Source of the DNA: an uncultured Chlamydiales bacterium
Lineage (GTDB): Bacteria > Chlamydiota > Chlamydiia > Chlamydiales > JAAKFR01
Length of the DNA stretch: 64,000 nucleotides
NCBI GenBank assembly: GCA_963699155.1
Contig: OY969414.1
Span: 2,283,757-2,347,756, forward strand
Direction of reading: 5' to 3'
Shown here: piece by piece, positions 27,001 to 30,000 of the stretch
How positions within the stretch are numbered: position 1 is the first letter of the stretch
Layout: every line of letters begins with the position of its first letter
Made by a program: the position numbers

Positions 27001-30000
27001 ATAGCGGTAGCTGTGCCCATCAACCGAATGGCACCTTCTACCTCGTCGATCTCTTTGAAAAAGAATGTCTGATCCAACAATTGCTCTACAGCCAAGAAAA
27101 AGAGTCCTGCACCTGGACAATCCACTGGCAGCAGCACTACAAGTTGAAATAGTGCATCATCTGTTCAGCCACTTCACTCGCTGCGCGATGCTGAACCGCT
27201 GATTCCACTTTTTCTGAACGGATATCGGGCATCTGTTTCAACATCTCCACCCACTCTGCCCTCTTCTTCGCTTCGCCTGAGATAGCGACGCTATCTTCGA
27301 GACGGGTCGCCTGAACGCCCTCTTTGGAACCCAGCTTGCGGACCGACTGGAGCGTATCGATTCCTGTAATTTCCATATGCCCGATCAAATCACTTTTCTC
27401 CAAAAAGATCTATGAAAATCTCGAAAGAATGTTCTCCTTAGCTAAGGAAGGTAAGTGCTTCCTGTTTCTTGCAAACGAATTCAATCGCAGATCTGAGCTT
27501 ACATGATTTATGTATACAAAATATTAATAGCATCTTAACATACACAGCCATTAGTCAAGCATGGAGCTTGATCAATTCACTACCATGGAGGTTTTATGGC
27601 TTTAGCAACCACTCAACTGGAGTATGGACGCCAAATGTTCCTGTATGAGCACAATAGTCAACTCACAGCATCTCAGCTGCGTAATCCCGCAGTCCCACCT
27701 CAGGCAAAATTCGATGCTCTAGCAACAACTGTAGAATCTGGTTCTCGCATTCTCGCCACCGGTGCTCAAATAGTATGTACTACAGGCAAGGAAGTAGAAT
27801 CACTAAGGAGTGATTGTGCAAGATTAAGGGGCAGATTTAATGATATGAGAAAAAAATCTTCTGCTCAGGAATCGCAGCAACGTTTGGTTGAGTTAGAATC
27901 AAAAAGAACATCGCTTATTGTCAAAATGAGTGCAGCTGCTGTTGGAGGTGTAATAACTTTCGCTCTAGTGTTTACATTGATAAAGGCGGCCGATAAGTAC
28001 GCTGAATTTGATAAAGAACTTCAAGAAGTTAATTACGAAATTGATTTTATAAAAAAATTTCCTGAAGCTACAAACGACAAGGAATTGAAGGAAATGTACC
28101 TCAGTGCATTAAGAAATATTGCTTATAGGAATTACGCATCATACCAAGCAAGTTTACTTCAAGGTTCAGTTTCGTATTGTAATGATGATGGTGAAATATG
28201 CTATTTAGAAGGGCATAGTTCTGATCCTACATCTATTCAAGATAAAGCAGATTTTAATGTAGAGGTTGCAAAATCCACACTCGAGAAAGTGGAACAGGAA
28301 ATACGGGAAGCTATTCTAATTCGATATTACGAATAAGCAGCCTTAAGCTTTTTGAAGTCAGCCTTCACATTTTACATCGTAAAGTGTGAAGGCCCCTTGC
28401 ACCAATCTCAGGACTACTCATTTTCTTTTTGCCAAATGTCAAAGAGGTGGAGAATCTCGTCGAGGTTGAGGTCGTAGGCGGAAGGGTAGACGAGATCGTA
28501 GCCGGAGAGGCTCTGGCGGGTGTGGGTGGTTTCGAGGGCAACGATAAAGGTGCCGGCGGCGTTGGCCGCTTGAATGCCGGAGGGGGCATCTTCGAAGACG
28601 ACGCACTGATTGGGTGTGAAGCCAAGGCGCTCTGCAGCAGCGATAAAGACATCGGGGTAGGGTTTGCCATGGGCAACCTCCTCGGCTGAGAGATAGTGGT
28701 CGAAATATTTTCCCAATACGGTTGACGAGAGAAAGAGCTCGAGATTGGCTACAGGCGCGGAGGAGGCGATGATGTGGGGGATTTTTGCGGCCACCACTTT
28801 TTGGAGGAAAGCCTCCATACCGGGGAGCAGGCTGATATTTCCTCGGGCAAGCTCGCGGAAGAGCTTCTCTTTCTGTTCGGCTAAGCGGTGGCGCGTCTCC
28901 TCAGGAATGTGGGGAATCAGACGCTGGAGGATGAGATCATTACGCATCCCAAAGCTGCCGTCAAAGTCGCTTTTATCCATTTGAAAACGAGGTTCTTGTT
29001 GCATGAGCAGCTGCCATGAGCGCCAATGGAACTCCTCGCTATCGATCAAGACCCCATCGTTATCAAATAAAAATGCAACTGGCTTCACGGATCTCCTCCA
29101 ACTGGTGCCGCAACATCATCAACCGATCGAAACCGACGGCGACCCCGCAGCAATCAGGTAGGCCCTGTTCCAAGGCTTGGACAAACTCTTCATCGATCGG
29201 CAGCAGCTGCTTACCGAGCCGCTTTCTCTCTTGGTTGGCCTCGATGAGACGGCGACGCTGCTCTTCAGCATCAATCAGCTCATGATAGCCATTGGCCAAC
29301 TCCATGCCCTCAAAGTAGATCTCAAACCGCTCTGCAAGTCCATCTGCCCCGATTTGGGAGAGAGCCGCCTGCTCAGGAGGAAAACCGATGACCACGCTCA
29401 GGCGATCTACTCCCAGATGGGGTTCCACTTCAAAGGCATAGATATGATCTCTCTCTTCTGGATCGGGATATCTTCCTGCATAGCGCAAAAAAACATCCCG
29501 GTAGCTCAAGAGTTCATAGTGGGCGGGAAGATTGTTCAGGAACAGACGGATAAAATCTACCGTTTCCTCGAGCATCTCCTTCAAGGTAAAACCGATACGG
29601 TACCATTCCGCCATCATAAATTCGACCGTGTGACGCTCTCCCTGCTCCCCATCACGGAACACGTGAGAAATCTGGTAAATATCTCCAATCCCTTCAGCCA
29701 AAAGACGCTTCATCCCATATTCTGGCGATGAGTGGAGAAAGGCGGGTTTGCCACAGCAAGTCACATTGACGAGATCGATATGGGCATCGACTGAAGCCGA
29801 TCTGCTGAGGATGGGAACATCGACCTCTAGCACCCCTTTTTGCGCAAAAAAGGCGCGGGCGCGAGCTATCAGAGAGGCCCTATCGCGCAGCAGCGCCGTC
29901 CTACTTATTGACGCGAGAGACATATTCCGCCGTCCTACTTATTGACTCGAGAGACATACTCCCCTGTGCGTGTGTCAATTTTGACCACCTCGCCCTGTTC

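What a model noticed while it worked through the whole genome (the two positions that open the first line are those of the whole stretch)
27137..27376. A FlgM-type anti-sigma-28 factor candidate, conserved in position across Chlamydiales
g02198 (79 aa, minus strand) is a small protein whose C-terminal half is predicted to wrap regions 2 and 4 of the genome's sigma-28 (FliA, g01480), as FlgM does in flagellated bacteria. Orthologues with the motif ISSEA-K-x3-WVE-x-LK-x-MPD-x-R lie at the same place (beside the g02197 metallophosphoesterase homologue, near efp and amn) in other chlamydial families, including two genomes of about 1 Mb from a distant family. Sigma-28 drives late genes in Chlamydia and its anti-sigma factor is unidentified, so this gene family is a concrete candidate. 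Because the flagellar-type export gate is kept here, secretion-coupled release of sigma-28 becomes testable.
Evidence so far: Pfam FlgM passes the gathering cut only just: 25.3 bits, model positions 1-32 of 55, E 4.7e-5. Complex prediction g01480+g02198 gives ipSAE 0.74/0.74/0.75 with best of 3 controls 0.00; runs share >=97% of contacts and partner pLDDT is >=68. Sigma residues 21-56 and 186-247 touch partner residues 38-79. That mark was reached by 51 of 78 solved complexes and 2 of 108 mismatched pairs; a FlgM-sigma-28 complex is solved, so the pass shows likeness to it. A protein search of 100 Chlamydiales genomes finds 6 with a match, including 3 of 3 same-family genomes. Alignment A3 of 6 sequences has 10 invariant columns. 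Profile A3 hits 73-74-aa ORFs in 2 of 5 further genomes tried, at E 2e-4 and 2e-3. The [...]
(Added by a program. Inside this text positions count along the whole contig: contig position 2,283,757 is position 1 of the stretch shown here. "Call 12" and the like, gene names such as g00115 and contig names such as C1 are that model's own, and its searches are not shown. The text may have been shortened before it was handed on; [...] marks where a part breaks off. The agent that wrote the report below was given it as the finding of a first reader that could run no searches.)

Follow-up and report, generated by a model that had tools for sequence, protein, structure and literature searches.

The report
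Diverged FlgM anti-sigma-28 gene in chlamydiae
This small gene is a genuine but strongly diverged relative of FlgM, the protein that holds the sigma-28 transcription factor inactive in flagellated bacteria, and its counterpart in the human pathogen Chlamydia trachomatis is the uncharacterised protein CT753, which gives a concrete candidate for the pathogen's long-sought sigma-28 inhibitor.

Summary
The 79-aa ORF at 27137-27376(-) is real and conserved. Its Pfam FlgM hit is marginal (26.6 bits against a cut-off of 25). A profile built only from chlamydial homologues, however, retrieves full-length FlgM proteins from 1.84 billion representatives. It aligns to those FlgMs at 98.9% hhalign probability, E 2e-17, over 61 columns.

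It always lies in the amn-efp / phosphoesterase-cpn60 neighbourhood. The C. trachomatis member is CT753/CTL0122, annotated "hypothetical". Pfam does not detect FlgM in any of 13 Chlamydiaceae members.

Fifty of the 54 carriers also encode sigma-28. The C. trachomatis sigma-28 + CT753 pair gives ipSAE 0.69 with best control 0.00. CT753 is transcribed and has been detected as a protein.

Papers from 2023 to 2026 name no anti-sigma-28 factor in Chlamydia. Actual binding, inhibition and secretion-coupled release are all untested. Five sigma-28-bearing genomes show no homologue at E 0.01 or better, and the RpoB tree cannot show independent co-loss of the two genes.

The parts
27137..27376 (-). flgM-like gene (79 aa; the stop codon is 27137-27139). 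Residues 1-33 are predicted disordered. Helices at 34-47, 53-61 and 66-76 form the presumed sigma-28-binding half. Orthologue of C. trachomatis CT753/CTL0122.
26295..27152 (+). Calcineurin-like metallophosphoesterase (the homologue of the Chlamydia gene next to CT753). It converges on the flgM-like gene and overlaps it by 16 bases. It is the conserved positional anchor of the family.
23419..25035 (+). Cpn60/GroEL-family paralogue, a conserved neighbour in the window's family and in Chlamydia.
29935..30507 (-). Elongation factor P (all three EF-P domains), a conserved neighbour. In Chlamydia it lies directly beside the CT753 orthologue.
30728..31555 (+).
28414..29923 (-). HAD hydrolase (28414-29088) and a class II tRNA-synthetase-like gene (29063-29923). 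They lie between the flgM-like gene and efp in the window's family, but no match to either was found in the five Chlamydiaceae regions examined.

Best explanation
The gene encodes a shortened, strongly diverged member of the FlgM family that acts as an anti-sigma factor for the genome's sigma-28 (FliA). The N-terminal third is disordered. Two conserved C-terminal elements are the binding parts. The first is the helix carrying K-R-x2-W-V-E-x-L-K-x-M-P-D, predicted to bind sigma region 2. The second is the last helix, ending in L/I-A-x2-h-L (h = I, L or M), predicted to bind sigma region 4. Together they would hold sigma-28 in a closed form that cannot join RNA polymerase. The same gene family, at the same chromosomal place, is CT753/CTL0122 in Chlamydia trachomatis. 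There it would restrain sigma-28, and so the late genes hctB and tsp, until release. Shown here: homology to FlgM, conservation, synteny and co-occurrence with sigma-28. Taken from papers: transcription and protein detection of CT753. Predicted only: binding to sigma-28. Inferred: inhibition of sigma-28 and the way it is released (export through the type III apparatus, proteolysis or partner switching).
For: (1) Homology. Pfam FlgM passes its cut-off, and 14 of 25 family members match FlgM at E<=0.1, while no other Pfam family matched more than one member. A profile of 35 chlamydial sequences found 130 proteins at E<=1e-3 among 1.84 billion. Of the 128 I scanned, 54 match Pfam FlgM at E<=0.01 and 31 pass its cut-off, many over the whole model at 50-82 bits. 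Against 19 of those FlgMs, hhalign gives 98.9%, E 2.1e-17, 61 columns. With the Chlamydiaceae rows removed it gives 99.0%, E 2.4e-18. The same 19 FlgMs match the solved FlgM chains 9wsf_B and 1rp3_B.
(2) Link to CT753. A Chlamydiaceae-only profile against a profile of the other members gives 95.7%, E 9.2e-9. Both sit between efp and the phosphoesterase. Exact look-up gives AAC68348.1/O84758.
(3) Architecture. The model has a disordered N-terminus of 33 residues and three C-terminal helices.
(4) Partner. Of 54 carriers, 50 also have sigma-28 over its cut-off and one more has a truncated copy. The other three carriers are 85-91% complete. No carrier occurs among 240 genomes of the four large families that lack sigma-28.
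(5) Complex prediction. C. trachomatis sigma-28 + CT753 scores ipSAE 0.69/0.71/0.63 with best of 3 controls 0.00. The runs agree in at least 79% of contacts and the partner pLDDT is at least 72. This mark was reached by 116 of 157 solved complexes and 2 of 215 mismatched pairs, but these counts hold only roughly because my own alignments were used. Sigma residues 23-85 and 188-253 (plus a few at 151-156) touch CT753 residues 31-47 and 58-74. A FlgM-sigma-28 complex has been solved, so the pass shows likeness to it rather than binding.
(6) The gene is real in C. trachomatis. CTL0122 is transcribed, and CT753 was detected with 2 unique peptides and 28.4% coverage.
(7) The role is vacant. [quoted passage not shown]
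Against: The direct Pfam score is marginal, and NCBIfam FlgM is below its cut-off. None of 13 Chlamydiaceae members, CT753 included, matches Pfam FlgM even at E<=10. The Chlamydiaceae-only profile against FlgM reaches only 59%, E 9e-5, so the CT753-FlgM link is transitive. The family profile found no FlgM among solved structures, and the single-chain model found no fold match. Eight of 58 sigma-28-bearing genomes had no profile hit. Two of these have diverged syntenic ORFs that lack the MPD motif. Five others (G085, G104, G348, G398, G341) have no match with either profile at E 0.01 or better; G085 gave a weak profile hit at E 0.023 and G104 a weak Pfam hit at E 0.06. Co-occurrence may reflect a single shared history: the RpoB data do not reject one clade holding all 19 sigma-28 bearers (p-AU 0.46). 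Only 3 independent pairs rest on well-supported branches, which is not significant. In C. trachomatis fliA is itself transcribed only from 24 hpi under Euo control, and sigma-28 overexpressed in mid-cycle is active, so timing does not require an anti-sigma factor (PMC12282069). CTL0122 mRNA is unchanged by sigma-28 knockdown, and no sigma-28-type promoter lies anywhere in the window, unlike flgM in enterobacteria. CT753 peptides were seen in 6 of 6 pre-purified EB runs and 2 of 6 EB runs but only 2 of 6 RB runs. That is not the pattern expected if the protein is simply cleared before EB formation. There are no binding data.
Confidence: 0.7

Rival explanations
1. The protein is a FlgM-derived partner that mainly stabilises or stores sigma-28 rather than timing its activity. 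For example, it could protect sigma-28 from proteolysis and carry it into the elementary body, as FlgM protects FliA in E. coli.
For: CT753 peptides are found mostly in EB preparations: EB_PRE 6 of 6 runs, EB 2 of 6, RB 2 of 6. fliA is itself expressed only late. FlgM-modulated proteolysis of FliA appears as a reference title in PMC11445079. The same predicted interface would serve this role.
Against: The EB_PRE samples were measured far more deeply than the RB samples, since other proteins have intensities about 100-fold higher there, so the distribution is weak evidence. Stabilising and inhibiting are not exclusive in FlgM.
Confidence: 0.12
2. The protein descends from FlgM but no longer works on sigma-28. 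It has been retained for another role, such as a type III secretion substrate or regulator, or a partner of another sigma factor or of the neighbouring phosphoesterase.
For: Chlamydiaceae members have diverged beyond Pfam detection. The deepest members have lost the MPD motif. The gene's position beside the phosphoesterase is conserved. Five sigma-28-bearing genomes have no detectable copy at E 0.01 or better.
Against: The residues conserved in over 90% of members (K, W, V, L, M, P of the central helix) are those predicted to contact sigma region 2 with the least error. No carrier was found in the 240 genomes of the four large families that lack sigma-28. The orientation relative to the phosphoesterase is not conserved, which argues against an operon with it.
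Confidence: 0.13
3. The ORF is a chance reading frame or a non-functional remnant.
For: It is short, has a marginal family score, and overlaps the 3' end of the neighbouring gene by 16 bases.
Against: An intact ORF of 59-115 aa is kept at the same place in dozens of genomes spanning families. Peptides of the C. trachomatis orthologue have been detected.
Confidence: 0.01

Closest known systems
FlgM, the anti-sigma-28 factor of flagellated bacteria (Pfam PF04316; solved chains 1rp3_B/1sc5 of Aquifex aeolicus and 9wsf_B, found)
   Same: It is a small protein with a disordered N-terminal part and a helical C-terminal part. It shares the D-x4-S-x2-A ... MPD-x-R-x-EK ... IA-x-K-IL pattern. It co-occurs with FliA and is predicted to contact sigma regions 2 and 4.
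   Different: It is about 15-25 residues shorter and lacks the LK-x2-I-x-G-x-Y segment (gap in the hhalign alignment). It has an invariant-like W-V-E in the central helix. The hosts are non-flagellated intracellular bacteria that keep only remnants such as flhA-flhF-fliA. No sigma-28-type promoter was found, and the transcript does not depend on sigma-28. Export has not been tested.
HsbA-FlgM partner switching of Pseudomonas aeruginosa (as described in a passage of PMC11619594)
   Same: In that system a STAS-type anti-anti-sigma factor binds FlgM. Chlamydia spp. carry an extra anti-anti-sigma factor, RsbV1, and that paper notes it alongside sigma-28 in Clavichlamydia as well.
   Different: No evidence here links RsbV1 to CT753. 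This is a lead for the release mechanism only.
RsbW of Chlamydia, the kinase-type anti-sigma factor of the Rsb partner-switching module (passages in PMC13463777 and PMC11619594)
   Same: It is the only anti-sigma factor named for Chlamydia in the passages I read from these papers.
   Different: It belongs to an unrelated family (a GHKL-type kinase), and those papers report that it sequesters sigma-66, not sigma-28.

Membership tests
FlgM (PF04316 / TIGR03824) | Sequence match to the curated family model above its cut-off | tested here: met
   For the window protein, Pfam gives 26.6 bits against a cut-off of 25, but only over model positions 1-32 of 55. TIGR03824 gives 18.1 bits against 40.75, which is not met. 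For Chlamydiaceae members, 0 of 13 match even at E<=10.
FlgM (PF04316 / TIGR03824) | Homology over the whole sigma-28-binding C-terminal domain, shown by profile comparison with undoubted FlgMs | tested here: met
   hhalign gives 98.9% (E 2.1e-17, 61 columns) and 99.0% without the Chlamydiaceae rows. The chlamydial profile retrieves full-length FlgMs from 1.84 billion proteins. A Chlamydiaceae-only profile against FlgM reaches only 59.3%.
FlgM (PF04316 / TIGR03824) | A small protein with an unstructured N-terminal part and a helical C-terminal part | tested here: met
   79 aa. In the AlphaFold2 model, mean pLDDT by 10-residue block is 47, 51 and 59 for residues 1-30, against 74-93 for the later blocks. 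Helices lie at 34-47, 53-61 and 66-76.
FlgM (PF04316 / TIGR03824) | Encoded in genomes that encode sigma-28 (FliA) | tested here: met
   Of 54 carriers, 50 have sigma-28 over its cut-off and 1 has a truncated copy. The other 3 are genomes 85-91% complete. The converse is incomplete: 8 of 58 sigma-28 bearers have no profile hit.
FlgM (PF04316 / TIGR03824) | Binds sigma-28 across regions 2 to 4 and blocks its association with core polymerase | tested here: inconclusive
   This is a prediction only. For C. trachomatis sigma-28 + CT753, ipSAE is 0.69 with best control 0.00, and the interface covers sigma regions 2 and 4. The pass may reflect likeness to the solved complex. Real binding and inhibition cannot be tested with these tools.
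FlgM (PF04316 / TIGR03824) | Exported through the flagellar type III apparatus to release sigma-28 | not testable with these tools
   The genome keeps a second FHIPEP (FlhA-type) gene in an flhA-flhF-fliA row. Most genomes of the window's family and of Chlamydiaceae show two or more FHIPEP matches. Nothing here shows export.
FlgM (PF04316 / TIGR03824) | Transcription of flgM partly from a sigma-28 (class 3) promoter (typical of the family, not defining) | tested here: not met
No sigma-70-type site was found upstream either. CTL0122 changes -1.1-fold, not significantly, on sigma-28 knockdown.

The most novel reading that the evidence does not exclude
Chlamydiae, which have no flagellum, have kept the flagellar checkpoint as a developmental switch. 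In this reading the CT753-family FlgM holds sigma-28 until it is removed at the RB-to-EB transition. Removal would be either by export through the type III secretion apparatus, which in these lineages retains flagellar-type FlhA paralogues, or by an HsbA-like anti-anti-sigma factor such as RsbV1. Either route would tie expression of the nucleoid-condensing histone HctB and the protease Tsp to secretion activity or metabolic state. This would be the mechanism that Hatch and Ouellette drew as a hypothetical model in 2023, with the missing protein now named.
Probability: 0.25. Interest if true: 0.9.

Novelty: new member of a known kind. Interest (0 to 1): 0.8.

Why it matters
Sigma-28 is one of only three sigma factors of Chlamydia. 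It drives hctB and tsp, genes needed to form infectious elementary bodies. Recent papers state that its anti-sigma factor has not been identified and propose a FlgM-like, secretion-coupled model without a candidate protein. This analysis names one. CT753/CTL0122 is a 74-aa 'hypothetical protein' that standard family searches cannot place. It becomes recognisable as FlgM only through its less diverged relatives in the family that holds this window's genome. The tools to test it already exist in the field: inducible knock-down and overexpression in C. trachomatis L2, sigma-28 antibodies, and in vitro transcription from the hctB promoter. The result also shows that a flagellar regulatory pair has outlived the flagellum in an obligate intracellular lineage.

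Tried and rejected
Family profile A1 against PDB sequences gave only chance-level hits and no FlgM.

Foldseek of the single-chain model against the PDB gave no match. This is expected for an extended helical peptide with pTM 0.32.

The promoter scans found no sigma-70-type site in 26900-27700 and no sigma-28 consensus anywhere in the window.

With the single protein it returned only 2 loci.

The look-up of sequencing runs listed no RNA holder. Only two soil-metagenome DNA runs held small shares of the words, and I did not lay them. This says nothing about expression.

The search of earlier findings returned nothing for this place or for the CT753 sequence, and only analogues in other phyla for the word search.

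The supplements held for PMC12095286 do not mention CTL0122.

The test for independent co-loss was inconclusive. The quick RpoB tree needs 8 changes for sigma-28 and 6 for the FlgM-like gene. The AU test nevertheless does not reject a single clade of sigma-28 bearers (p 0.46). The sign test on 3 independent pairs cannot reach significance.

I considered and rejected the idea that the gene forms an operon with the phosphoesterase. The two genes converge in most lineages, and the small gene is flipped in the C. trachomatis group.

The window's own sigma-28 + FlgM-like pair was not folded, because the cap is one job.
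Full report
**The observation.** The minus-strand ORF at 27137-27376 encodes 79 residues from an ATG. A TTG nine codons upstream would give 88 residues. Six close homologues from metagenomes all begin MEITGID, so the ATG is the likely start. The gene converges on a calcineurin-like metallophosphoesterase (26295-27152, +) and overlaps it by 16 bases. On the far side lie an ORF of 246 aa with no family, a HAD hydrolase, a class II tRNA-synthetase-like gene, EF-P and a PNP_UDP_1 phosphorylase-superfamily gene. Upstream of the phosphoesterase lie a GT9 glycosyltransferase and a Cpn60 paralogue.

Pfam FlgM scores 26.6 bits (E 6.8e-6, cut-off 25) over model positions 1-32 of 55. NCBIfam FlgM is below its cut-off (18.1 bits against 40.75). 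The genome has one contig of 2,399,326 bases. It encodes sigma-28 (250 bits, cut-off 189.6).

**Is it really FlgM?** The direct hit is marginal, so I tested homology through profiles. A single-sequence search of 400 sampled genomes of the phylum found 26 carriers, including 20 of 22 genomes in the window's own family, f1. I aligned 25 of the ORFs (A1). Fourteen of the 25 match Pfam FlgM at E<=0.1, and no other family matched more than one member.

An alignment of 35 chlamydial members (A2) was searched against 1.84 billion representative proteins and found 130 at E<=1e-3. I scanned 128 of them with Pfam, leaving out two Chlamydia proteins I already held. Fifty-four match FlgM at E<=0.01 and 31 pass its cut-off. 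Many of the weaker hits to my profile are full-length FlgMs, at 50-82 bits over model positions 1-55.

Nineteen of these were aligned (A3), and they match the solved FlgM chains 9wsf_B and 1rp3_B. hhalign of A2 against A3 gives 98.9% probability, E 2.1e-17, over 61 columns. The alignment covers residues 20-78 of the window protein. With all Chlamydiaceae rows removed (A6) the figures are 99.0% and E 2.4e-18.

The shared pattern is D-x4-S-x2-A, then a helix, then MPD-x-R-x-EK, then I/L-A-x2-I/L-L. The chlamydial proteins lack the LK-x2-I-x-G-x-Y segment of ordinary FlgMs. An AlphaFold2 model (mean pLDDT 70.9, pTM 0.32) has a low-confidence N-terminal 33 residues and helices at 34-47, 53-61 and 66-76. 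This is the FlgM layout.

Three negative results should be recorded. The family profile found no FlgM among PDB sequences. The model found no fold match. No promoter consensus was found.

**The family is CT753.** Profile A1 hit 27 of 29 genomes of family f3 at E<=1, including 23 of 24 species of its main genus, which have genomes of 1.0-1.3 Mb. Exact look-ups named them as Chlamydia suis, C. trachomatis, C. muridarum, C. felis, C. caviae, C. serpentis, Ca. C. sanziniae and others. All are annotated 'hypothetical protein' or 'putative cytosolic protein'. The C. trachomatis protein is AAC68348.1 / O84758.

A table in Griffiths et al. 2006 lists it as 'CT753 (AAC68348) hypoth, 74aa', with its best listed hit outside the chlamydiae at E 1.3 (PMC1403754, passage only). 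In strain L2 it is CTL0122, at complement(164936..165160) and 74 aa by composition (supplement 4 of PMC10597470).

None of 13 Chlamydiaceae members matches Pfam FlgM even at E<=10, which explains why CT753 was never named. The link is transitive. A Chlamydiaceae-only profile (A7) against the other members (A6) gives 95.7%, E 9.2e-9 over 44 columns. A7 against FlgM directly gives only 59.3%, E 9.1e-5, although the alignment is in the same register. CT753 and the window protein are 25% identical (18 of 71 aligned positions).

Position supports orthology. The small gene lies between efp and the phosphoesterase, with the Cpn60 paralogue beyond, in four Chlamydia species and one genome of a second genus of the same family. 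It lies beside the phosphoesterase in two genomes of the window's family and in two genomes of two other families. Two deeper genera of f3 that the profile missed carry diverged ORFs at the same place. These keep LLKKL and WV-x-L but lack MPD; their E-values were computed against a tiny database. G192 has no such ORF there.

**Distribution and the partner.** With profile A2, 54 of 400 genomes carry the gene. By family the counts are f1 21 of 22 plus G000, f3 26 of 29, f2 1 of 1, f7 2 of 2, f26 1 of 1, and 2 of 18 among the remaining small families. There is none in f5 (0 of 46), f6 (0 of 69), f8 (0 of 35) or f9 (0 of 90) (one genome, G005, could not be scored).

Sigma-28 over its cut-off is present in 58 of 401 genomes. 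The overlap is 50. One more carrier has a sigma-28 copy truncated at a contig end (187.5 bits). The other three carriers are 85%, 90% and 91% complete.

Eight sigma-28 bearers had no hit. Two of them have the diverged syntenic ORFs just described. G192 is 95% complete. Five (G085, G104, G348, G398, G341) gave nothing at E 0.01 or better with either the Pfam model or A2; G085 had a weak A2 hit at E 0.023 and G104 a weak Pfam hit at E 0.06. Four of those five carry a canonical FlhA over the TIGR01398 cut-off.

On an RpoB tree of 57 genomes (quick search, LG+G4), the window's family is sister to Chlamydiaceae (SH-aLRT 100). Other carriers (f7, f26) sit inside a well-supported clade of 20 in which 17 lack both genes. 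The tree needs 8 changes for sigma-28 and 6 for the FlgM-like gene. However, the AU test does not reject a tree with all 19 sigma-28 bearers in one clade (p 0.46). The three independent pairs on supported branches cannot reach significance. Co-occurrence is therefore consistent with a functional pair but is not independent proof.

**Predicted binding.** I used the single complex job on the orthologous pair that matters most and differs most from the window's pair. This was C. trachomatis sigma-28 (253 aa, alignment of 21 rows, A4) with CT753 (74 aa, alignment of 34 rows, A5).

The score is ipSAE 0.69 (runs 0.69, 0.71, 0.63), and the best of 3 controls is 0.00. The runs share at least 79% of contacts and the partner pLDDT is at least 72. 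The mark was reached by 116 of 157 solved complexes and 2 of 215 mismatched pairs. These counts hold only roughly, because my own alignments were used.

CT753 residues 31-47, the conserved K-R-x2-W-V-E-K-L-x2-M-P helix, touch sigma residues 23-62 and 81-85 (region 2). Residues 58-74, the last helix, touch sigma residues 188-253 (region 4). A FlgM-sigma-28 complex has been solved (1rp3/1sc5), so the pass shows likeness to that complex and not that these proteins bind.

**What is known in Chlamydia.**
[quoted passage not shown] They draw a hypothetical model in which an unidentified anti-sigma factor is secreted.
- In their tables CTL0122 is expressed. It is unchanged by sigma-28 knock-down (-1.1-fold, not significant). 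It rises about twofold on sigma-54 knock-down (2.06-fold, FDR 0.046; 2.29-fold, FDR 0.029). It is unchanged in the double knock-down. The rise would fit their finding that sigma-54 is needed for sigma-28 activity, but it may simply reflect a developmental block.
- Østergaard et al. 2016 (PMC5141270, Table S1) detected CT753 with 2 unique peptides, 28.4% coverage and PEP 3.3e-6. The signal was non-zero in RB 2 of 6 runs, aberrant RB 0 of 6, pre-purified EB 6 of 6 and EB 2 of 6. The EB_PRE samples were measured much more deeply than the others.
- A 2025 ChIP-seq study (PMC12282069, passages) finds sigma-28 only at hctB and tsp, and only late. It shows fliA transcribed from 24 hpi under Euo control, and it shows that sigma-28 overexpressed in mid-cycle activates hctB and tsp. 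This means an anti-sigma factor is not required to explain the timing. The 2023 authors note that overexpression could out-titrate an inhibitor.
- The passages I read from a July 2026 review name no anti-sigma-28 factor (PMC13463777).

Four searches bear on whether this is already in print. 'CT753' returned 4 papers, of which one is chlamydial. 'CTL0122', 'CT_753' and two locus tags I guessed returned nothing further on chlamydiae. 'FlgM' with 'Chlamydia' returned 34 papers, of which 25 were listed. 'Chlamydia', 'sigma28' and 'anti-sigma factor' from 2022 returned 13 papers, of which 10 were listed. Neither the listings nor the passages I read from three of these papers link CT753 to FlgM. The library holds only open-licence PMC papers and bioRxiv preprints.

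**Mechanism.**
- Shown here or in papers: a FlgM homologue is conserved with sigma-28 and is expressed in C. trachomatis.
- Predicted: it clamps sigma regions 2 and 4.
- Inferred: it inhibits sigma-28, and it is released at the RB-to-EB transition.

For release there are three candidates. The first is export through the type III apparatus. The window's genome keeps an flhA-flhF-fliA row beside its SctV. Two or more FHIPEP matches occur in 21 of 22 f1 genomes and 26 of 29 f3 genomes, whereas most genomes of the families lacking sigma-28 show one. These counts are floors, because at most two candidates per genome were scored. The second candidate is proteolysis. The third is an HsbA-like anti-anti-sigma factor, a lead taken from a passage on P. 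aeruginosa and on RsbV1 in PMC11619594. None of the three has been tested.

**Verdict.** I put homology to FlgM at about 0.95, an anti-sigma-28 (or sigma-28-binding) function at about 0.7, and secretion-coupled release at about 0.25. The protein belongs to a known family, but it fills a gap that the Chlamydia field states openly and makes that gap directly testable.

Noticed in passing
G000 contig C1:1543498-1546786 (outside the window; loci L004, L093, L094): A flagellar-type row survives in this non-flagellate genome. It runs from an FHIPEP/FlhA paralogue (630-aa frame), through a 260-aa SRP54-type GTPase (FlhF-like), to sigma-28, whose start overlaps the GTPase stop. A separate SctV lies at 1584250-1586247.
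   Followed up: partly
L060 8846-9067 (-) compared with L062 8846-9073 (+), L069 and L063: The CT753 orthologue keeps its place between efp and the phosphoesterase, but its orientation is flipped in the C. trachomatis genome (co-directional with the phosphoesterase) relative to the other Chlamydia genomes examined and to the window's family (convergent with it).
   Followed up: partly
window 27596-28336 (+): A 246-aa ORF with no Pfam or NCBIfam family sits between the flgM-like gene and the HAD hydrolase. tblastn found no match to it in any of the 10 related regions, including the same-genus genome, where the two flanking genes are adjacent. It therefore looks like an insertion specific to this genome.
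   Followed up: partly
G000 contig C1:1237730-1241454 (outside the window; locus L122): rpoB is read in two overlapping frames (model positions 3-156 and 154-1237), which indicates a frameshift near 1238161-1238173. This may be an assembly error, and other small indels could exist in this single-contig assembly.
   Followed up: no
genomes G085, G104, G348, G398 (other families of the phylum): These genomes have sigma-28 and a canonical FlhA over the TIGR01398 cut-off, so they are possibly flagellated chlamydiae. Yet they show no FlgM with either the Pfam model or the chlamydial profile at E 0.01 or better (G085 and G104 gave weak hits at E 0.023 and 0.06). Their sigma-28 inhibitor, if they have one, is undetected.
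   Followed up: partly
C. trachomatis L2 CTL0122 (supplement 4 of PMC10597470): The CT753 orthologue's transcript rises about twofold when sigma-54 is knocked down (FDR 0.046 and 0.029) but not in the double knock-down. That study found sigma-54 to be needed for sigma-28 activity.
   Followed up: no
genome G253 (window's family f1, 91% complete): This is the one member of the window's family without the flgM-like gene. It also lacks a sigma-28 match and shows only one FHIPEP match. Either all three were lost together or the assembly has gaps.
   Followed up: no
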